Under the pieces are notes generated by a model, which had not been told where the DNA came from, did not search any database, and saw only the letters and a program-made list of their open reading frames with translations. From sequence record NC_041869.1: DNA of 64,000 bases; one strand, 5' to 3'. The translations under genes were made by a program, and so were the position numbers. This stretch comes from Escherichia phage APECc02. Below, one piece after another: positions 1,395-63,531 of this stretch. Numbering within the stretch: position 1 is the stretch's first letter; each line of letters starts with the position of its first letter.

Positions 1395-1419
1395 AGGGGC
1401 TTAAAGCCCCTTTCTTTTT
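1395..1419 (+). terminator. rho-independent terminator (AGGGGC-TTAAA-GCCCCT + TTCTTTTTG)
   Basis: GC hairpin plus T-run immediately after ORF 1112-1375. Confidence 0.65.
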
Positions 1420-2027
1420 GTCTCCTCTTTTCCTACCACAAATGGCCCCGCCTGGCAAATGGAATAATCAACAAGCCAGCAATTAACCCCACTGTACAAA
1501 CATACATATAAAATAACTATTGCATAATTTTTCATTGTGTGGTAGCAGGGCCATTTTTACACGTTTTTCCTTCCAAAATTGCACGTAATGCAGCATTTGC
1601 ACAAAATTTAACCTGATGCATATCTTCAATAGCTTGTCAACAACTAAAAATCTTTATAAGTCATACACTTACATAACTACAAAAGCGTTTTCTACGTGAA
1701 AAATCGAGTATAACTATAGCCGCCAGATCTCAGAATTTACGTACGCTCGCCATTCTATAGCCTGCTAAGCATTTATTCCAACCATAGAATAACGGAATAG
1801 TCAATACCTGCATAAAATAATTATTCGTGTAAACTGCATAACATAAATCGGCCCAGGTGTCAACATTTTTCGTAAACAGTCTGGAATTGTCACGTTAGGT
1901 TACCATAAGCAGAGAAATCTTTAGTCGTCTAATGTTTACTGTACGTTACTATACTAACTGAAATCATTAGATGACTAATAGAAAGATAAGAAATAATTAA
2001 CAATACAATTATTTTATCTGTAACAAT

Positions 2028-2222
2028 AAGGCAACTATGCAAACGAATGGCATGGCGCGACGGAGTCGCGACATAATATAAAAGCAGTAACCATCACCCC
2101 CGTGATAGTTTGTCTGCAAACTATTAATCAGATCATAGTTGCCTTGTATTTAGTTAATCATGACATAACAAGCAAGGCAACTATAGATCTGCTAATAGTT
2201 GCCCTGCTTTTATATTATGTCA
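2028..2222. repeat. nested inverted repeats: 18-bp perfect arms GACATAATATAAAAGCAG (2070-2087) / CTGCTTTTATATTATGTC (2204-2221); GGCAACTAT motif 4x in alternating orientation; 8-bp stem hairpin 2105-2124
   Basis: read directly from sequence. Confidence 0.7.
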
Positions 2223-2317
2223 TAGAAACACCCGAAGGGGTGACCAAAGGTTACCTGGCATAGCCAGTGAAAGATTATTAACTTGCTAATCTTTATCATG
2301 CAAACGAATGGCATGGC
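2037..2317. repeat. 20-bp perfect direct repeat ATGCAAACGAATGGCATGGC at 2037-2056 and 2298-2317
   Basis: exact match seen in sequence. Confidence 0.8.
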
Positions 2318-2336
2318 TTATCATTTCTGTGTAAAT

Positions 2337-2381
2337 AGTCTATGCGTAAACTGTCAAGGCGTAAACAATCTATGCGTGAAC
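2337..2381. repeat. direct repeats TCTATGCGT(A/G)AAC x2 plus GGCGTAAAC
   Basis: seen in sequence. Confidence 0.6.
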
Positions 2382-2409
2382 AGTGAAACATGAAATAATA
2401 ACAGTTGTT

Positions 2410-2505
2410 ATTGTGTCATATTGTGCTGCAGCGTGTTGAGTATGTTTAAGGTGCCCAGTATGTCACCATTATGTCACTATTGTGTCATAGTGTCATAGTA
2501 TGTCA
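2410..2505. repeat. cluster of short (A/G)TGTCA(C/T) direct repeats, 6-8 copies at ~8-11 bp spacing
   Basis: seen in sequence. Confidence 0.6.
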
Positions 2506-2973
2506 GACAAGTTTTTCCCCTCTTTGTCAAGTGCTGCATGAAAAAATTTACAAGCTGGTATGGTAGCATTTTTGCGGCCTTGTTTACATTCAGTAATGTA
2601 TGTATAACCCTTGATGTGTGGGCGTTTAGACGTCTAGACGGTCAGAAGTCTGCAGGTCAATATCTAATCTATTGGCTGCTAACTATATCCCCCACAAATA
2701 ATAAGAAATATAATTGTTATGTGCGTAAACAGTAACTCATGTTATCAATCCCTGTATGGATCGCCAGTGGTGCGCATAATGGGTATTATGTTAAATTGCC
2801 CGTAATGATAACTATTCTCACAATGATAGGTATTCTCATTCACCCCCACAAGATAGGTTGCAAATGTTGTGCCACTGTGTGAACGGCCTAGCCTATTAAT
2901 TTGCCTCACTGCCTTGATATTTGAGAATTGTTATAAGAATGAGAAGTATTCCCATTTCGTCCGCCTGGCAGCA

Positions 2974-3316
2974 CTCCTGTAGGTCCTGCAAGGACTCTAG
3001 CTGAAAGCTAGACCCTTCGGGCCTCCCTGTAGGTCAGGTCAAAATCGTGGTAGAATTGGGCCTGTTCAGATATTTCTGGCTGACTCTTCAGGTCTGTGTG
3101 GGAAAAGCCAACCTCTCCGGCGGGGCAGGGGGTCATGACGGGAAAATTGCAGGTCAATTAAAAAATTTACGTGGTGTATGAAGCGCTCTTCAGGTAAGGC
3201 ATGTATTATGGGATGAAACCCTCTTCAGGCAATGATATTTGTGGGTGTGATATTTGCTGGAAAGCCAGATATGACGGGACTCCCGGCGGGGCAGGGGTAG
3301 TACAGACAGGGAAAAT
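2974..3316. repeat. GC-rich repeat family: CTCTTCAGG x3 (3085, 3186, 3221), CCGGCGGGGCAGGGG x2 (3117, 3282), ATGACGGGA x2, CCTGTAGGTC x2
   Basis: seen in sequence; no ORF with RBS. Confidence 0.6.
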
Positions 3317-3993
3317 ATGAGAATGTAGTTGGGGAAATTGATCAGACAGGTAGAGTATGGAATATGTTACAAGTATGTTAAATATGGAGGTTGAATATCT
3401 GTAGGATTTGTGTGTAAAATCAAAGACTTAAGGGGTGTTGTGGTATTTTCTATAAATAATTCAAGTTTAATAGGCAATATTTGTCTCTATCCGCTTTGTG
3501 TGGTAAACAGATTCAGATTAGATTGGTTTACAAGTGTATACATAATATACAAATTAAAGATACAAGAAACCCCCCTCCCCCCTTCGGCTACCATTCACCT
3601 TTTCCTCTGACTGGTACTTAAACACTTATTCAGACTCTTCAGGTTATCACCCATATATCATATGGCAGTGACTGGTGTCCTCCGGCCCCTCTTTCGTCAC
3701 CCGTCCGCTTCGCCATGCTAATGCCATAGCTAATGGTTCGGTTGTTCACCCTGTTCACTCAGGTGTATCTCTATACCCCTTCAAACCGAAGAGAACAGAA
3801 AACCCGAATTACTCGGTAAAAGAAAAGAGAAGAACTTAATTTTATCAGGATAGGCAAGAATGTCAAGGCATGACTGCTCACTAAACAAGCAAACAGTCAT
3901 GTGTGGGAGGTAAGTGATTGTGGTGGTAGGAAATTTAGTTGAAAGATGTGTTATAGGTGCTTCCAGCACTTTAGCCGGGCAGCTAATTGTGTG

Positions 3994-4330: not shown

Positions 4331-4744
4331 TCATAGTCTACCACCCCTGAACTCTTCGTGCTCAGGCATAATAGAGAACCAGATATCTACGATGTCTTCC
4401 CACGTCAGGTCATCAGCCTCAGGATCTACCTGGAGCGAAGATGAAGAATCTTCAGAATCGAAGTTTTCCTCTTGCACTGGCTCAGTCAAGGGACATATAG
4501 TCACTCCTTTGGATGTCTCTTCAGATGCATGTGTGTTTATCATGTTCCACCCGTGAGTATTCCGGCAACAGCCACTATGGACGTAATGATCATCAGGATC
4601 ACCACCAAAACCTCTGACAATGTTTTCATTGTGTATCCCATATTCTCCAAACGATGTGTGGATACTATCACTGGATCGGTAATGTGTCAACAGAAACGCC
4701 GCGAGGGTTTGGTTAAAATCCGAGCGTATGGTGATTTGGGTCAA
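4331..4744 (-). CDS. hypothetical protein
   Basis: longest ORF co-oriented with block; opposite-strand overlaps rejected. Confidence 0.4.
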   Translation of the reverse strand: MTQITIRSDFNQTLAAFLLTHYRSSDSIHTSFGEYGIHNENIVRGFGGDPDDHYVHSGCCRNTHGWNMINTHASEETSKGVTICPLTEPVQEENFDSEDSSSSLQVDPEADDLTWEDIVDIWFSIMPEHEEFRGGRL

Positions 4745-41770: not shown

Positions 41771-42325
41771 ATGAAATACTTTGTAACAAGCGACACACAC
41801 TTTCTCCACCAGCGGGTCATGGAGTTCGACTCATGTCAAAAACACAGATCTCAGTATGATCACAATCTTGACAGTATGAATGCGGGAATCATCACCGAGT
41901 GGAACTCTGTTGTGTCACCTGCAGACACTGTGTTCCACCTGGGAGATATTGCGTGCACTAATGATAAGAATATCAACAAATTGCTCCCAGATGTTCTAAA
42001 TATGTTGAACGGACATATTATTCTTGTTCGTGGTAACCATGACACAAGGACGACTGTCAGAATTATGAAAGAGTTCGGTCATGAGGTTGTAGATTATTAC
42101 GAGCTTCGCCACAACAAGAATTTGATCTGTATGAGCCATTACCAGTTTGCAAAGTGGAACAGAAAGCCTCACGGATCAGTCCAACTGTTCGGTCATGCTC
42201 ACGGAACCACACAGCAGTTGTTTGGCAGGCAGTTTGATGTCGGTTGGGATGTGTGGGGGAGACTCTTACCATTAGAAGAGGCATACCGTATTGCAATGAG
42301 TCTTGCTATTGACAGCGGGGAGTAA
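41771..42325 (+). CDS. calcineurin-like metallophosphoesterase
   Basis: DTHF, GD, GNHD motifs; start at MKYFV with GAGGA RBS. Confidence 0.65.
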   Translation: MKYFVTSDTHFLHQRVMEFDSCQKHRSQYDHNLDSMNAGIITEWNSVVSPADTVFHLGDIACTNDKNINKLLPDVLNMLNGHIILVRGNHDTRTTVRIMKEFGHEVVDYYELRHNKNLICMSHYQFAKWNRKPHGSVQLFGHAHGTTQQLFGRQFDVGWDVWGRLLPLEEAYRIAMSLAIDSGE

Positions 42326-42372
42326 TCCCTGCTATTTTAAAGAAAATTGCCACACAAGGAGAATCAGGAGAT

Positions 42373-42723
42373 ATGAAAGATGGGGATAAGCTGCTATATC
42401 TTAAAGTCCCCCTTGAAATACTGTCTATGTCAAAAGTTTTGAATGACACAACTGGGGAGGTTGTTGTTCTTGACTTGTATGACAAGATCGTATACTGCTA
42501 CCTGCACAACTGGTATAAGCTTGGAGGAAGTTCACGCTTCACACCCAGCACAAGGAAAATTGCAGCAGATGTTGGGATAAAGAAAACAAAAGCAGCAGCG
42601 TGCGTTAAAACTTTAGAATGTGCAGGAGTGGTTGAAATATCCACACAAGGGAGAGGTAAAAGATGCACATTTTCCAAAGTTTTGCCACCAGAAGAGGTTA
42701 TTCGAATGTCAACAACTGGTTAG
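42373..42723 (+). CDS. hypothetical protein, possible DNA-binding
   Basis: ORF with AAGGAGAA RBS; immediately upstream of iteron array. Confidence 0.45.
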   Translation: MKDGDKLLYLKVPLEILSMSKVLNDTTGEVVVLDLYDKIVYCYLHNWYKLGGSSRFTPSTRKIAADVGIKKTKAAACVKTLECAGVVEISTQGRGKRCTFSKVLPPEEVIRMSTTG

Positions 42724-42796
42724 ACCAGTAAAAACTTAAATATCTGTACTATAAGGATTCGTATGTTTTATGTTCGCTCTGGAACAGAGGTTAGTA

Positions 42797-42880
42797 ACTG
42801 TCCGTGATACGGACACTACTGTCCGTCACGCGGACACATCTGCCCGTAATACGGACACTAACTGTCCGTGATACGGACAC
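42797..42880. repeat. four tandem ~21-bp iterons, each palindromic (CTGTCCGT-N4-ACGGACAC)
   Basis: copies at 42797, 42818, 42839, 42861. Confidence 0.8.
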
Positions 42881-42884
42881 ATAA

Positions 42885-43015
42885 AGAATATAACTAAAAT
42901 AACTAAATAATAAAAAATAAAAGATCTAGTACTTATGGTACTAAGTACATATACTTAACTTATGTAGAATATACTAGATCCTAAGTACCATGTTTTAAAT
43001 TTATTACTTACTATG
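42885..43015. other. AT-rich tract with short direct/inverted repeats (CTAAGTAC, AGTACT)
   Basis: composition and repeats seen directly. Confidence 0.6.
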
Positions 43016-43020
43016 GGTAG

Positions 43021-43270
43021 TGTCGGCCCTTCATTGGCACTCGCCTACGAGGGGCGAGATGCCGGGCCTCCCTGGTGCACACAATAACAGAAGTGCATAC
43101 ATGCAGGTCTGTTAACATGTGTGGGAGCGAAGCGATAGCGCAGGCCAAAGGCCGAGCACTGATGTGGACCACCGACGAAAGCTTGCCAGCGCCGTAAGGA
43201 GTCGGTTGAGAGTCTCCCGCGCGAGCTTGGATGAAGTTTATGTGTGGAAACGGACAAGAAGGCCCCTAAA
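43021..43270. other. GC-rich ORF-free island with multiple hairpins (candidate structured RNA or acquired fragment)
   Basis: marked GC shift versus flanks; no plus-strand ORF; several GC stems. Confidence 0.35.
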
Positions 43271-43383
43271 TCGCTCCACAGCTATATAAACTATACCAGG
43301 TAAGGCAATCGCACCAGTTTGATAGAAAAGCTCGTTACAAAGCGATACAGTGAGTTTTTCTATAACTTGAAGAGGAGGTAGTT

Positions 43384-43962
43384 ATGAGTCCACGCAAAGA
43401 TGACCGTGAAAAGATTGCAAAACGTTATCAGAATGAAGAACAGATGGAGAAAACTTTCAAGTGGAAGCCAGGTTTCCAGCGTAATCATTCTAACGCTCGT
43501 GATCGTAAGCATCCGGATAAGTGGTTAACACCGCCAAATGATGGCATTCAGGTTGGTGATGAGAAGGAGCTGTCACCTGGAAAAGATGGCAACTACATTC
43601 GAACTAAGGAAGCAGGTCCAAAGGATGACAGCTATCTTGTAGATAAGGTTCTTGACGGTGTTGATGTAGGTGTTGACACTGTACGAAACCTTTTTCTTGG
43701 TTGGTATCGCACAGGGTTTTTCGACATCAAGGCTATTCGTCGTGTTTGTGATATTAAAAAGTCTGCCTACGATGATGATTCCCTACATCGCACTCTGAGA
43801 CAATACTCAGAGAGATACGGTCATCCAGTTATCACTCTTGACGATATTAACGAAGTTATGTATCATGTAGAGGTTGTTGCAGGTAGGTTCGGTGATGCAT
43901 ATCTCGGTATTCTCTCTGCAAAGGATGAGGTAATGTTAAATAAGATTTACTATGAACGCTGA
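43384..43962 (+). CDS. hypothetical protein
   Basis: ORF with GAAGAGGAGG RBS. Confidence 0.55.
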   Translation: MSPRKDDREKIAKRYQNEEQMEKTFKWKPGFQRNHSNARDRKHPDKWLTPPNDGIQVGDEKELSPGKDGNYIRTKEAGPKDDSYLVDKVLDGVDVGVDTVRNLFLGWYRTGFFDIKAIRRVCDIKKSAYDDDSLHRTLRQYSERYGHPVITLDDINEVMYHVEVVAGRFGDAYLGILSAKDEVMLNKIYYER

Positions 43963-44480: not shown

Positions 44481-44767
44481 GGTTGTTTTCGTGTATCATG
44501 ATGAATATCCAATTTAAAGATGAATTTGATGGCTTTATCTCCGGATGCTTTGAAACAGGGTTCGGAGAAGGCTGAGTTACCCTTAGAGGGCTTGATAGTG
44601 CACCACACTTAAAATGGTAGGGGCAGCCAGCACATGACGATGTGACCCCAGCCAACCTGTAATAAGGTCGAGCCAAAGCGCGGTAATGGGCTCTGGTAAC
44701 CCACTTGTTGGGTCTTGCTGGTCCAGGACGCTGGACAAGTCGCAGGGAATACCACCCTGCGGCGAAC

Positions 44768-44796
44768 TTGACAATCAGTATTTGCTATGATAAAAT
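44768..44796 (+). promoter_or_regulatory. sigma70-type promoter (TTGACA-N17-TAAAAT)
   Basis: hexamers read directly. Confidence 0.55.
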
Positions 44797-45728: not shown

Positions 45729-45825
45729 GCTAGGTAAGCCCTTTGGCAAGGGCGAGGATTTTTAATCCTGAAAATAGACGAGGTAGTCGTTGAATACATA
45801 GGTGGTTCGATTCCATCACCTAGCA
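45729..45825 (+). ncRNA. atypical tRNA-like element (acceptor and T-arm intact; possible TTT anticodon; ~31-nt variable region)
   Basis: GCTAGGT/ACCTAGC acceptor pairing and GGTTCGATTCC T-arm, but non-canonical middle. Confidence 0.3.
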
Positions 45826-45832
45826 CCTTTTT

Positions 45833-55870: not shown

Positions 55871-56329
55871 ATGCTAAAGGTTAAATGTCAAACAAGGTTC
55901 AACCTAAAGCGCTTAGATCGCTTCTACAAAGACCTTGTGAGACTTGAAAGTAAAACAATAACCTACGGCTTTTATGACGAACCTCACCCGTCAGGCTTAA
56001 ATATGGCAACATTGGCAGCCATTCACAACTTCGGTTGGAACGGGCTGCCTGTTCGCAATTTCATGGAGACAGCCTTTGCATTTCATAGTGCTCAACTGCA
56101 GACTTTGACAGAAAAATTGTTGAGAGCTATGGCTAGAGGATCAAGTGCAGAGGCTATTCTTAAGCAGATGGGGGACACAGGGGCCAAAGCTATCCAGTTT
56201 GTTATTGAGGCTGGGCAGTTTAGTAATCCTACTGTTAGTGAGCAGTGGGCACAAGAAAAGGGCTTCAACGAGGCTATGCGGCATTACGATGTGCTGCTTG
56301 AATCTGCAACCTTTAAAATCGGACAGTAA
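55871..56329 (+). CDS. head-tail joining / virion morphogenesis protein (tentative)
   Basis: start MLKVK with GAGGGA RBS; call by position. Confidence 0.4.
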   Translation: MLKVKCQTRFNLKRLDRFYKDLVRLESKTITYGFYDEPHPSGLNMATLAAIHNFGWNGLPVRNFMETAFAFHSAQLQTLTEKLLRAMARGSSAEAILKQMGDTGAKAIQFVIEAGQFSNPTVSEQWAQEKGFNEAMRHYDVLLESATFKIGQ

Positions 56330-62646: not shown

Positions 62647-63531
62647 ATGCCAAGCAATATAGTTGATGAAAAAGACCTGTACAAGCCTCAAGAGGTTAAA
62701 TCTCCAAAGGCTGAAAAGGCAGAGCAGCAAACTGAAAGCGATGTAAAGTACACTATGTTTGTCAGCGGTCTTAACTATGGCGGTCGCAATACGGGGATGA
62801 AGGGTAAAAACTTTACTAACGATCTTGCCATTATCTTCGATCAGGTTGAGAATTACTCTTTCAAACATTCTGTTGATAAGACTGGGTTTGCGGTGGAAGA
62901 TAAATCTACCCTGTCAGACCACGCCGTAATTAAAGATGGTGTATTTTCTTTTACTGGTAGGGTAAATACATCCCCACACATAATCTATGAGCAAAACTAC
63001 ATTGATAGGAATACTGACTCTAAAAACCCTGCAGCATCTATGCGACCAGGCGCTGCATTGGAGGCTTTGACTGAGATTATCAATAAGCGACAGTTGGTTT
63101 CTTTGGTTACCGAGGAGAGACTTCTTGAGAACTACATCATAACCAGTCTTTCTGCCAACAAGTCTGTTGGTGAAGGCGCTGCAATGGTGTTTGATGTAGA
63201 ACTTACAGAGTTCCGCACATTCTACTTGAATAAGGTTGTTAATGCAACTGTATACAGCAATCCTAAGAAAGTAGGCAAGACCCAACAAAAAGGCGCTGTC
63301 AACGACTGTAAGAATGGTAGTAACGTAGGTAACAAGAGGGACACAGGAGCATTCGCAGACACTGCATCCACAAACGCTGCAGAGGAGTGGCAGCCATACA
63401 AATCTATGATGTGGACAGATGAAAACGGTGTTACCCAATCGGCTGCGGATTGGTATTATCAGGAATATGGAAGACCTTCTACCATAGTCCCATCTGAGCA
63501 GGGAAACTACAACAAAGTTAACGGGAAATAA
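62647..63531 (+). CDS. tail protein downstream of tape measure
   Basis: start at MPSNIVDE with GGAGAGG RBS. Confidence 0.45.
   Translation: MPSNIVDEKDLYKPQEVKSPKAEKAEQQTESDVKYTMFVSGLNYGGRNTGMKGKNFTNDLAIIFDQVENYSFKHSVDKTGFAVEDKSTLSDHAVIKDGVFSFTGRVNTSPHIIYEQNYIDRNTDSKNPAASMRPGAALEALTEIINKRQLVSLVTEERLLENYIITSLSANKSVGEGAAMVFDVELTEFRTFYLNKVVNATVYSNPKKVGKTQQKGAVNDCKNGSNVGNKRDTGAFADTASTNAAEEWQPYKSMMWTDENGVTQSAADWYYQEYGRPSTIVPSEQGNYNKVNGK

What the first reader, a model, noticed from the sequence alone, without database searches (positions are those of the whole stretch)
43021..43270. GC-rich ORF-free island with multiple hairpins (candidate structured RNA or foreign insert)
About 250 bp with base composition sharply higher in GC than the surrounding phage DNA, no plus-strand ORF, and several GC stems (CTCGCC/GGCGAG, TGCAC/GTGCA, GGCC/GGCC). 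It sits between the AT-rich tract and a gene with a strong RBS. It could be a structured non-coding RNA, a ribozyme-like element or a horizontally acquired fragment.
Basis: seen in the sequence. Interest (0 to 1): 0.55.

Follow-up and report, generated by a model that had tools for sequence, protein, structure and literature searches.

The report
Folded non-coding element beside phage origin
The GC-rich island is a real, non-coding, hairpin-forming element next to what looks like a replication origin in rV5-like coliphages, and small E. coli plasmids carrying phage capsid and tail genes (probable satellites) hold a copy of its core, so it is probably a signal that a shared replication or packaging machinery recognises.

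Summary
Window 43021-43270 is the most GC-rich 250-nt stretch of the 64 kb (0.572 against 0.43, z=4). It encodes no conserved protein and it forms hairpins.

The window is a Vequintavirus (rV5-like) coliphage. The island follows a Rep-like HTH gene, four 21-bp iterons and an AT-rich palindromic tract. It consists of five hairpin modules punctuated by TGTGTGG(G).

Its 62-nt core (43162-43223) is a three-way junction. It has a 6-bp stem, a 3-bp hairpin and a CC-GNNA-GG mini-hairpin. The same core occurs in about 13-kb circular E. coli plasmids with capsid and tail genes, and in diverged form in an unrelated phage contig. It always lies beside iterons of a different sequence. On the 12-sequence alignment all 132 pair cells stay paired, and 7 of 11 pairs changed on both sides.

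No Rfam family matches, and neither covariance model links the island to G4-type origins.

My best reading (about 0.45) is a single-strand initiation signal, like ssi sites, that folds when the neighbouring AT-rich tract melts. A structured RNA (about 0.3 over two versions) and a packaging signal (about 0.1) are not excluded.

It is new as a sequence family and is a variant of a known kind of element.

The parts
42373..42723 (+). Rep-like winged-helix/HTH gene (116 aa) just upstream of the iterons
   Evidence: PHROG 12838 'replication initiation protein' at 8.5e-80, and the N-terminal part of phrog_8102 at 5e-6. Pfam HTH_36 at 8e-5, below its cut-off. Found only in Vequintavirus among GenBank phages. 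A near-consensus sigma-70 promoter lies at 42309-42338.
42797..42880 (.). Four 21-bp direct repeats (iterons), each with an internal dyad GTCCG..CGGAC
   Evidence: Tandem Repeats Finder: period 21, 4.0 copies, consensus ACTGTCCGTGATACGGACACT. Inverted repeats I4-I7. Annotated as repeat_region in phages pangalan and Alma.
42881..43016 (.). AT-rich tract with nested inverted repeats; candidate DNA-unwinding element
   Evidence: GC is about 0.35 for 42771-43020. Inverted repeats I2, I9 and I11, including GATCTAGTA/TACTAGATC. In the divergent phages L250 and L273 it is replaced together with the rep gene and iterons, while the island is kept.
43020..43074 (+). Module 1: long bulged hairpin. GGCCC 43025-43029 pairs with GGGCC 43064-43068, GGCA 43036-43039 with TGCC 43060-43063, and CTCGCC 43040-43045 with GGCGAG 43053-43058.
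   Evidence: 15 pairs, 100% of 90 cells paired. Two G-C to U-A double changes occur in plasmid CP020521. All slid controls fall below 48% paired.
43075..43117 (+). Module 2: variable hairpin (CACACA..UAACAGA..UGCA loop UGCA..UCUGUUA..UGUGUG)
   Evidence: Inverted repeat I3 at 43078-43121; MFE structure. 18 nt are deleted in V5, MaxTheCat and Pr121LW, so it is dispensable or variable.
43118..43161 (+). Module 3: TGTGTGGG motif (43118-43125), mini-hairpin motifs GCGAAGC (43127-43133) and GCGATAGC (43132-43139), and GGCC-AAA-GGCC hairpin (43143-43153)
   Evidence: TGTGTGGG is the most over-represented 8-mer on the + strand of the window: 9 against 0.88 expected, z 8.7.
43162..43223 (+). Conserved core, a three-way junction. 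5' tail AUGUGGACC. P1 is 43171-43176 with 43201-43206. Junction GAAA. P2 is 43181-43183 with 43188-43190. P3 is CC 43192-43193 with GG 43198-43199, closing G(U/G)AA. 3' tail UGAGAGUCUCCCGCGCG.
   Evidence: Covariance model R1 finds one copy per genome at 95 bits. It finds the core in 10 of the 15 satellite loci held and a diverged copy in L272 at 32.6 bits, E about 1e-5. On alignment A4, 132 of 132 cells are paired, 7 of 11 pairs changed on both sides, and 0 of 500 shuffles reach this.
43224..43290 (+). Module 5 and 3' edge: GCGCGAGC mini-hairpin motif (43219-43226), ATGTGTGG (43240-43247) and the conserved CCCCTAAAT box (43263-43271)
   Evidence: CYCTAAAT(C/G)GC is shared by the phages, L273 and the satellites. 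This part varies more than the core.
43384..43962 (+). Downstream gene (192 aa, unknown function); not part of the element
   Evidence: PHROG 12226, unknown function. A 51%-identical homologue in contig L272/L282 lies about 5.4 kb from that contig's copy of the core, so gene and element are not tied together.

Best explanation
The island is the third part of an iteron-type replication origin. The order is Rep-like gene, iterons, AT-rich unwinding tract, then this hairpin array.

When the initiator melts the AT-rich tract, the + strand of the island becomes single-stranded and folds. It forms a set of stable hairpins and mini-hairpins around a three-way-junction core. The invariant loops and tails of that core are then recognised by a priming or replisome-loading enzyme, which is either the phage's own primase-helicase or a host primosome protein. 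In other words it works like a single-strand initiation (ssi) signal, as ssiA/ssiB do beside the iterons of RSF1010, or as G4-type signals do in plasmids.

The 13-kb plasmids have their own Rep and their own iterons but keep the same core. That would let the same machinery replicate them.

Shown here: the element is non-coding, folded and conserved, it sits beside iterons in every lineage examined, and it is strand-asymmetric. Inferred: that the repeats are an origin, that the folded form is DNA rather than RNA, and that the partner is a primase or loader.
For: 1. Position. The core lies just past iterons plus an AT-rich tract in three phage contexts, each with a different Rep-like gene and different iterons. 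These are the window type, the L250/L273 type and the L272/L282 type. It also lies there in satellites with at least five iteron types. The Rep-iteron-AT cassette is swapped while the island stays.

2. The Rep-like proteins of the window, L250 and the satellites hit PHROG replication-initiator families and HTH_36.

3. Structure is under selection. There are 2 double changes in hairpin 1 and 7 of 11 pairs changed on both sides in the core, with 132 of 132 cells paired. I wrote down P2 before L272 was seen, and L272 then confirmed it (GCU/AGC becomes AGC/GCU).

4. DNA mini-hairpin motifs (GCGNAGC, GCGNNAGC, CCGNNAGG) occur 4 times on the + strand of the island. Shuffles give a mean of 0.51 (P=0.0016), and the - strand has none. 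L272's P2 is A-GCGAAGC-U. Such motifs are reported at the G4, St-1 and alpha3 priming sites, in RSF1010 ssiA and in N4 hairpin promoters (PMC13037366). Two of the tetraloops, GAUA and GUCA, do not fit the RNA GNRA rule. Stems of 2-3 bp are plausible as DNA mini-hairpins.

5. The element has no promoter or terminator of its own. In the satellites and in L272 the sigma-70-like promoters of the next genes lie downstream of it, so it is not their leader.

6. RSF1010 oriV sets the precedent: primase RepB' starts on two 40-nt hairpin signals within oriV (PMC8567376).
Against: No experiment shows that the repeats are an origin. Each iteron is also a dyad, so the array could be a set of operators.

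A three-way junction with a G(U/G)(A/G)A loop and invariant junction purines is just as typical of a structured RNA. The P1 closing pair is G-U in 3 of 12 sequences.

The element is co-oriented with transcription everywhere, and in the window it is probably read through from the promoter at 42309.

Neither covariance model links it to G4-type origins. It is a single copy in one orientation, unlike the ssiA/ssiB pair. Vequintavirus copies have no CTG start triplet downstream of P1.

5 of the 15 satellite loci held carry a different core.

The mini-hairpin test was thought of after seeing the sequence.
Confidence: 0.45

Rival explanations
1. The folded molecule is RNA with a role in replication. 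The + strand transcript that runs from the rep promoter through the iterons and AT tract folds into the hairpin array. It either forms a persistent G-rich R-loop that primes DNA synthesis, as in ColE1 RNA II or phage T4 origins, or it recruits a factor to the origin.
For: There is no terminator between the promoter at 42309-42338 and the island, so read-through is likely. The element is co-oriented with flanking genes in every context. It has a GNRA-like loop, G-U pairs and conserved junction purines. The + strand folds 3-14 kcal/mol better than the - strand in all six phage variants. G-rich TGTGTGGG motifs punctuate the array. This reading explains the link to iterons as well as the best explanation does.
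Against: No promoter was found upstream of the element in the satellites. In the satellites the + and - strand energies show no consistent bias. Stems of 2-3 bp with GAA, GAUA or GUCA loops are weak as RNA. No RNase H-type processing site can be recognised. No expression data exist.
Confidence: 0.2
2. It is a structured regulatory or decoy RNA unrelated to replication. Examples would be a processing or stability element of the polycistronic transcript, a processive antitermination signal like HK022 put, or a decoy for a host defence. Phage and satellites would share it because both need the same factor.
For: Covarying helices with invariant loops. The hairpin modules of the satellites vary and are shuffled, as expected under an arms race. 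Related three-hairpin modules follow a promoter-like 25-mer in the large non-coding region of the phage. A relative of rV5 is already known to carry a decoy RNA, pseudo-ToxI of phage phiTE (PMC3475682).
Against: It does not explain why the core sits beside iterons in every lineage. There is no Rfam match, even at permissive thresholds. There is no promoter or terminator of its own. In the satellites and L272 the promoters lie downstream of it.
Confidence: 0.12
3. It is the DNA packaging recognition site (pac) of the phage terminase. The satellites copy it because they encode a capsid protein but no terminase or portal.
For: The satellites lack recognisable terminase and portal genes. The core is the longest non-coding stretch they share with the phage at 85% identity or more, while shared proteins are only 25-50% identical. 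Alternative cores in 5 of 15 satellite loci could match other helpers.
Against: A site recognised on double-stranded DNA should not show compensatory stem changes with invariant loops. This reading does not explain the link to iterons. The alternative core matches no sequenced phage. Record start positions give no hint of termini here.
Confidence: 0.1
4. It is a small protein-coding gene (the minus ORF 43045-43257 or the plus ORF 43119-43289), or a chance or host-derived GC-rich insert with no function.
For: Some GenBank records annotate CDSs here. The + ORF is open in 13 of 14 phage variants.
Against: The minus ORF has stops in most relatives. Variable sites are spread evenly over codon positions. 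Frameshifting indels occur. No ribosome-binding site is present. No chromosome among 5,426 E. coli genomes matches. Conservation with covariation across three lineages rules out junk.
Confidence: 0.03

Closest known systems
ssiA/ssiB of the IncQ plasmid RSF1010 (oriV: iterons, GC-rich and AT-rich segments, then hairpin signals used by primase RepB')
   Same: Same layout: an initiator binding iterons, an AT-rich tract, then stable hairpins with sequence-specific unpaired parts. ssiA contains a CCGAAGG mini-hairpin, and the island core has CCG(T/G)AAGG (PMC8567376 and PMC13037366).
   Different: RSF1010 has two 40-nt signals on opposite strands. Here there is one 62-nt three-way junction in one orientation, inside a 250-nt array. 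No sequence similarity and no RepB'-type primase were seen nearby. The phage primase-helicase is described as T7 gp4-like (PMC3606486).
G4-type primase-dependent complementary-strand origins (phages G4, St-1, alpha3) and G4-type ssi signals of plasmids
   Same: GC-rich multi-hairpin element on one strand. The main stem is followed by CGAAAGC (G4: GGACGGC-GAAAGCC-GCCGTCC; L272: GACGGC-GAAA...GCCGTC). Short blocks are shared with G4 oric: CCAATGTGG, GAGTCTCC, GACGGCGAAA, GTGCCTACGG and CAAAGGCCG. That is 12 shared 8-mers against 2.3 in dinucleotide shuffles, P=0.001.
   Different: The covariance model of the three oric regions finds nothing in the window, L282, L273 or the satellites. The core model finds nothing in G4. 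Local alignments are not significant. The k-mer excess is not reproduced with alpha3 or St-1, where unrelated windows score as high. The island is not the best match to G4 oric within the 64 kb. Vequintavirus copies lack a CTG start site.
ori-lambda-type origins (iterons, AT-rich tract, flanking palindrome)
   Same: The same order of elements. The satellite Rep-like protein weakly matches the O-like initiator family phrog_391. My recollection is that lambda has a 28-bp palindrome to the right of the AT-rich tract; I did not check this here.
   Different: The lambda origin lies inside gene O, and its palindrome is short and of unclear role. Here the structured part is 250 nt, modular, and conserved independently of the initiator.
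ColE1 RNA II and phage T4 R-loop origins (transcript-primed replication)
   Same: A multi-hairpin, G-rich transcript at an origin would fit the co-orientation with transcription.
   Different: No dedicated promoter, no antisense RNA and no recognisable RNase H processing site. ColE1-type replicons have no iterons.

Membership tests
Any Rfam 15 RNA family (4227 models) | Score at or above the family's gathering threshold, or a credible E-value | tested here: not met
   The only gathering-level hits in the 64 kb are six tRNAs. A permissive scan of 42700-43450 gives rli43 at 23.9 bits against a threshold of 100, placed mostly on the AT tract, plus noise.
G4-type primase-dependent ssi / oric | Sequence and structure similarity to the conserved G4, St-1 and alpha3 origin | tested here: not met
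   Model R2, built from the three origins, gives no hit at E<=10 in the window, L282, L006, L273, L259 or L275. R1 gives no hit in G4. The k-mer resemblance holds for G4 only and is not replicated.
G4-type primase-dependent ssi / oric | 5'-CTG-3' primer start a few bases 3' of the main hairpin | tested here: not met
   There is no CTG in 43207-43240 of the window or in the satellite cores. It is present only in L272 (GAAGATCTGCG).
G4-type primase-dependent ssi / oric | SSB-dependent priming by DnaG on the single strand | not testable with these tools
   Needs an in vitro priming assay or an M13-delta-ori rescue assay.
RSF1010-type ssiA/ssiB | Location inside oriV next to iterons and an AT-rich segment | tested here: met
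   The order iterons, AT-rich tract, element is seen in the window, L250/L273, L272 and the satellites.
RSF1010-type ssiA/ssiB | Two copies as an inverted repeat, one per strand | tested here: not met
   R1 with filters off finds one copy in one orientation per genome.
RSF1010-type ssiA/ssiB | A dedicated RepB'-type primase encoded by the replicon | not tested
   No such gene is seen near the locus or in the satellites. The phage genome outside the window was not searched.
DNA mini-hairpin motif class (GCGNAGC / GCGNNAGC and C-G analogues) | Presence of the motif on the functional strand | tested here: met
   Four matches on the + strand at 43127, 43132, 43192 and 43219, and none on the - strand; P=0.0016 against shuffles. 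L272 has GCGAAGC and CCGGGAGG. The test was devised after seeing the sequence.
Iteron-type replication origin | Tandem direct repeats, adjacent AT-rich tract and a cognate Rep gene | tested here: met
   Whether it functions as an origin is not testable here.
Independent small-RNA gene | Own promoter and intrinsic terminator | tested here: not met
   No sigma-70-like promoter or terminator in 42650-43450 on either strand. Phage-specific promoter types are not covered by the scan.
Protein-coding gene | ORF kept open in relatives, with third-position bias of substitutions | tested here: not met
   Stops and frameshifts occur in relatives. Variable sites by codon position are 16/12/18 for the minus ORF and 14/19/15 for the plus ORF.

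The most novel reading that the evidence does not exclude
The core is a previously undescribed class of folded nucleic-acid signal by which a new family of plasmid-borne satellites of lytic Vequintavirus phages plugs into its helper's replication or packaging machinery. The interchangeable cores (the three-way junction against the alternative TCCGGAT hairpin core) and the shuffled hairpin modules would then set helper specificity. The same module grammar (TGTGTGGG plus hairpins) would organise the 2.5-kb non-coding region of the phage.
Probability: 0.3. Interest if true: 0.8.

Novelty: new variant of a known kind. Interest (0 to 1): 0.62.

Why it matters
rV5-like phages are widely used against pathogenic E. 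coli, yet their origin of replication has never been located. The rV5 genome paper tried skew analysis without success (PMC3606486).

This work gives a concrete, testable candidate origin: Rep-like gene, iterons, AT tract and a folded signal. It also gives a covariance model for the signal.

It links the phages to a tight family of 13-14-kb E. coli plasmids that encode a capsid protein, Dit, neck and tape-measure proteins. My literature searches found no description of these plasmids as satellites.

If the core is the handle by which such elements exploit a strictly lytic helper, it would be a second case to set beside ICP1 and PLE in Vibrio. It would also be a ready tool for building replicons that depend on phage infection.

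Tried and rejected
- **Rfam.** Scans of the whole window and permissive scans of the island, the second GC-rich island and the 2.5-kb non-coding region found nothing.
- **Collection scans with a 15-mer.** The 25-mer scan found one IMG/VR phage. The metagenome scan found 6 true copies and 7 chance hits.
- **Phage-only RNAalifold.** It gave an unconstrained long-range fold that ignores helices proven by the satellites. I dropped it because there is too little variation.
- **Proposed pairings.** GGAC/GUCU between the core tails, and GGGAGCG with CGCUCC: variation does not support either.
- **Hammerhead-like reading.** CUGAUG...GAAA is not conserved; it is CUAAUG in most relatives.
- **DnaA-box and Chi readings of TGTGTGGG.** The matches to those consensus sequences are poor (by eye).
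- **T7-primase site reading.** GTGTC or GGGTC occurs before hairpin 1, but it is not present in all modules.
- **Satellite capsid protein in IMG/VR.** No hit.
- **Alternative satellite core and the L272 island against GenBank phages.** No meaningful hit.
- **Strand choice from folding energies.** Consistent in the phages but not in the satellites.
- **G4 homology.** Tested four ways and not established.
- **Literature.** I found nothing on this locus, on Vequintavirus transcriptomes or on such satellites.

Full report
**What the window is.** The region is 99.9% identical to Escherichia phage AlexBoehm and 90-99% identical to 117 GenBank records of the genus Vequintavirus (rV5-like myoviruses). 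In window orientation the local gene order is RNA ligase on the minus strand, then on the plus strand polynucleotide kinase, a phosphoesterase, a 116-aa HTH protein (42373-42723), the non-coding stretch under study, a 192-aa protein of unknown function (43384-43962), several small genes and a tRNA cluster.

**The observation.** The island 43021-43270 has GC 0.572, against 0.430 for the window. It is the single most GC-rich 250-nt stretch of the 64 kb (z=4.0), flanked by 0.352 and 0.412.

Short ORFs exist on both strands, and some records annotate them. The minus-strand ORF 43045-43257 has stop codons in most relatives. One-base indels occur. Variable sites are spread evenly over the three codon positions. 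The region is therefore non-coding. Folding energy is only mildly below shuffles (z about -2 on either strand), so energy alone proves nothing.

**Surroundings.** The HTH protein is followed by four 21-bp direct repeats at 42797-42880 (consensus ACTGTCCGTGATACGGACACT, each with an internal dyad). Next comes a 135-bp AT-rich tract with nested inverted repeats. The HTH protein belongs to a PHROG family named replication initiation protein and matches the N-terminal DNA-binding part of a longer initiator family. Its Pfam HTH_36 match is below threshold.

A near-consensus sigma-70 promoter precedes this gene at 42309-42338. No promoter-like or terminator-like site lies between 42339 and 43838. The island has no transcription signals of its own and is probably read through on the plus strand.

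**Relatives outside the genus: plasmids.** Among 5,426 complete E. coli genomes the island matches no chromosome. It matches only four small plasmids. These plasmids, and related metagenome and isolate contigs, are 13.2-14.3 kb circles. One record is 39.6 kb and holds three matching places, so it may be a trimer.

They encode a major capsid protein, a Dit-like protein (50% identical to window 62710-63333), a neck or tail-completion protein (44% identical to window 55877-56299), a tape-measure protein, several small proteins and a roughly 300-aa HTH_36 or O-like Rep-like protein. No terminase or portal gene is recognisable. I read them as satellites of Vequintavirus phages kept as plasmids. That is an inference, and my literature searches found no description of them.

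In each plasmid the homologue of the island lies between a set of iterons and the operon that contains the Rep-like gene. The iterons differ from plasmid to plasmid. The element has the same orientation as that operon, and the sigma-70-like promoters of the operon lie downstream of it.

**Anatomy.** Comparison shows that the island is modular. The modules are:

- Module 1 (43020-43074): a long bulged hairpin.
- Module 2 (43075-43117): a variable hairpin, partly deleted in V5-type phages.
- Module 3 (43118-43161): starts with TGTGTGGG and holds GCGAAGC, GCGATAGC and GGCC-AAA-GGCC.
- The core (43162-43223).
- Module 5: starts with ATGTGTGG and ends with a CCCCTAAAT box.

In the satellites the 5' hairpin and the core frame one to four extra modules, each preceded by TGTGTGGG. 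Many are three abutting perfect hairpins with 3-4-nt loops. Different satellites carry different combinations.

TGTGTGGG is the most over-represented 8-mer on the plus strand of the window (9 against 0.88 expected). It clusters in non-coding DNA.

**The core and its covariation.** The core reads AUGUGGACC-[ACCGAC]-GAAA-[GCU-UGCC-AGC]-G-[CC-GUAA-GG]-A-[GUCGGU]-UGAGAGUCUCCCGCGCG.

- Between phages and satellites the 6-bp stem changes at three pairs on both sides (ACCGAC/GUCGGU becomes GCUGCC/GGCAGC). The 24-nt interior is invariant except for the second base of the tetraloop.
- Hairpin 1 shows two further double changes in plasmid CP020521, with 100% pairing.
- A covariance model of the core (R1) finds exactly one copy in the window and one in each satellite that has it.
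- R1 also finds a diverged copy (32.6 bits, E about 1e-5) in an otherwise unrelated 24.5-kb phage contig, L272/L282. It reads AUGUGGGAU-[GACGGC]-GAAA-[AGC-GAA-GCU]-G-[CC-GGGA-GG]-A-[GCCGUC]-GAAGAUCUGCGCC.
- All three helices are kept there with different sequences, including the 3-bp helix that I had only inferred from the invariant sequence.
- On the 12-sequence alignment all 132 pair cells are standard pairs, 7 of 11 pairs have changes on both sides, no shuffle out of 500 reaches this, and slid controls collapse. The alignment is fitted to the model, which favours the structure. However, L272 was not used to build the model.

**Constant neighbourhood.** In L272 the core again follows three iterons of yet another sequence (CCAAGGGCCAAATAATGGCCC), AT-rich DNA and a TGTGTGGGAG motif. 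A sigma-70-like promoter for the next gene lies downstream of it.

In two divergent Vequintavirus-like phages (L250 and L273) the rep gene, the iterons and the AT tract are all replaced by unrelated versions, while the island is retained.

The 192-aa gene is not tied to the element. Its 51% homologue in L272 lies about 5.4 kb from that contig's core.

So the one constant partner of the core, in three phage contexts and in satellites with at least five iteron types, is an iteron array with an AT-rich tract.

**RNA or DNA?** The sequence data do not settle this.

For RNA:

- The three-way junction, the GNRA-like loops (GUAA, GGAA, GGGA) and the invariant junction purines.
- A-U to G-U changes at the P1 closing pair, which would be C-A on the other strand.
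- Co-orientation with transcription.
- A consistently better plus-strand fold in the six phage variants.

For folded single-stranded DNA at an origin:

- The position.
- The lack of its own transcription signals, and promoters lying downstream of it in the satellites and L272.
- Very short helices that are stable mainly as DNA mini-hairpins.
- A strand-specific excess of the DNA mini-hairpin motifs: four on the plus strand, none on the minus strand, P=0.0016. They include GCGAAGC, which recurs as P2 of L272, and loops (GAUA, GUCA) that break the RNA GNRA rule.

A 2026 review reports such motifs at the G4, St-1 and alpha3 priming sites, in RSF1010 ssiA and in N4 hairpin promoters (PMC13037366). 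In RSF1010 the primase starts on hairpin signals within oriV (PMC8567376).

**Test of G4 membership.** Because the ssi idea predicts it, I compared the family with G4-type origins.

- The G4 origin shares several short blocks with the family on its template strand. Among 1,116 windows of the G4 genome it has the most shared 8-mers (12 against 1.9; P=0.001 against dinucleotide shuffles).
- This was not reproduced for alpha3 or St-1, where unrelated windows score as high.
- The island is not the best match to G4 oric within the 64 kb.
- Local alignments are not significant.
- Neither covariance model crosses over.

The element is therefore not a member of the G4 family by sequence. It may still work like one.

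**Verdict.** The island is a real, conserved, non-coding, folded element of a kind not in Rfam.

- Most likely (about 0.45), it is the single-strand initiation or loading signal of an iteron-type origin, copied by plasmid-borne satellites.
- About 0.2: an origin-linked RNA (primer or R-loop).
- About 0.12: a regulatory or decoy RNA.
- About 0.1: a packaging site. The satellites' lack of a terminase keeps this reading alive, but covarying stems argue against recognition on double-stranded DNA.
- A protein-coding reading or junk is very unlikely.

Five of the 15 satellite loci held carry a different core that matches no sequenced phage. This fits a helper-specific recognition module.

Noticed in passing
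window 1400-3990: About 2.5 kb with no ORF of 80 aa or more, probably the 'non-coding' box of the rV5 map. It holds several sets of direct repeats, CTCTTCAGG motifs (TCTTCAGG occurs 10 times on the + strand and never on the - strand) and four + strand TGTGTGGG motifs. A three-hairpin module at 2978-3030 matches a satellite module (L005 1537-1581) with compensatory changes. No Rfam hit. It could be a second origin or a control region built from the same module grammar.
   Followed up: partly
window 2915-2939: The 25-mer TGATATTTGAGAATTGTTATAAGAA is 96% identical in the first seven satellite loci examined. There it points away from the island, about 1.2 kb upstream. It looks like a shared, possibly phage-specific, promoter or control site.
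   Followed up: partly
L006 (NZ_CP020521), L005, L007-L009, L259, L264, L274-L281: A tight family of 13.2-14.3-kb circular E. coli plasmids and contigs; the capsid protein cluster has more than 400 member sequences. They encode capsid, Dit, neck and tape-measure proteins related to Vequintavirus, plus their own Rep and iterons, but no terminase or portal. They are probable plasmid-borne satellites of a lytic phage, and I found no description of them in the papers searched.
   Followed up: partly
L274-L278 (e.g. L275, minus strand, about 350 nt past CCCACAAAT): These five satellites replace the three-way-junction core with another core: ATGTGGAG, a TCCGGAT/ATCCGGA hairpin, then GGGATTCCGCGCG; or ATCCGGACC, 12 nt, then GAGTCTCCCGCGCG. 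No sequenced phage matches it.
   Followed up: partly
window 44580-44765: A second GC-rich (0.50-0.53), ORF-poor island immediately upstream of a near-consensus extended -10 promoter (44768-44796). Fold z is -2.1. No Rfam hit, and it is not shared with the satellites.
   Followed up: partly
window 45729-45827: A tRNA-like gene of 99 nt. ARAGORN calls it with a four-base anticodon (atcc). Relatives annotate it as tRNA-Lys or 'OTHER'. Its Rfam tRNA score is only 35.5 bits.
   Followed up: no
window 42224-42275, 2224-2274 and 4468-4524; L004 915-965: A hairpin-rich motif of about 50 nt (CACC-loop-GGTG, then ...TACCTGGCATAGCCAGTGAAAGATT) recurs in the phage non-coding region, near 4468-4524, and in several places in the satellites, one of them just upstream of the island homologue.
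   Followed up: no
GenBank records MG0656xx: Eighteen records labelled 'Campylobacter phage' are 98% identical to E. coli Vequintavirus phages over this locus. The host label is doubtful.
   Followed up: no
I did not open the record.
   Followed up: no
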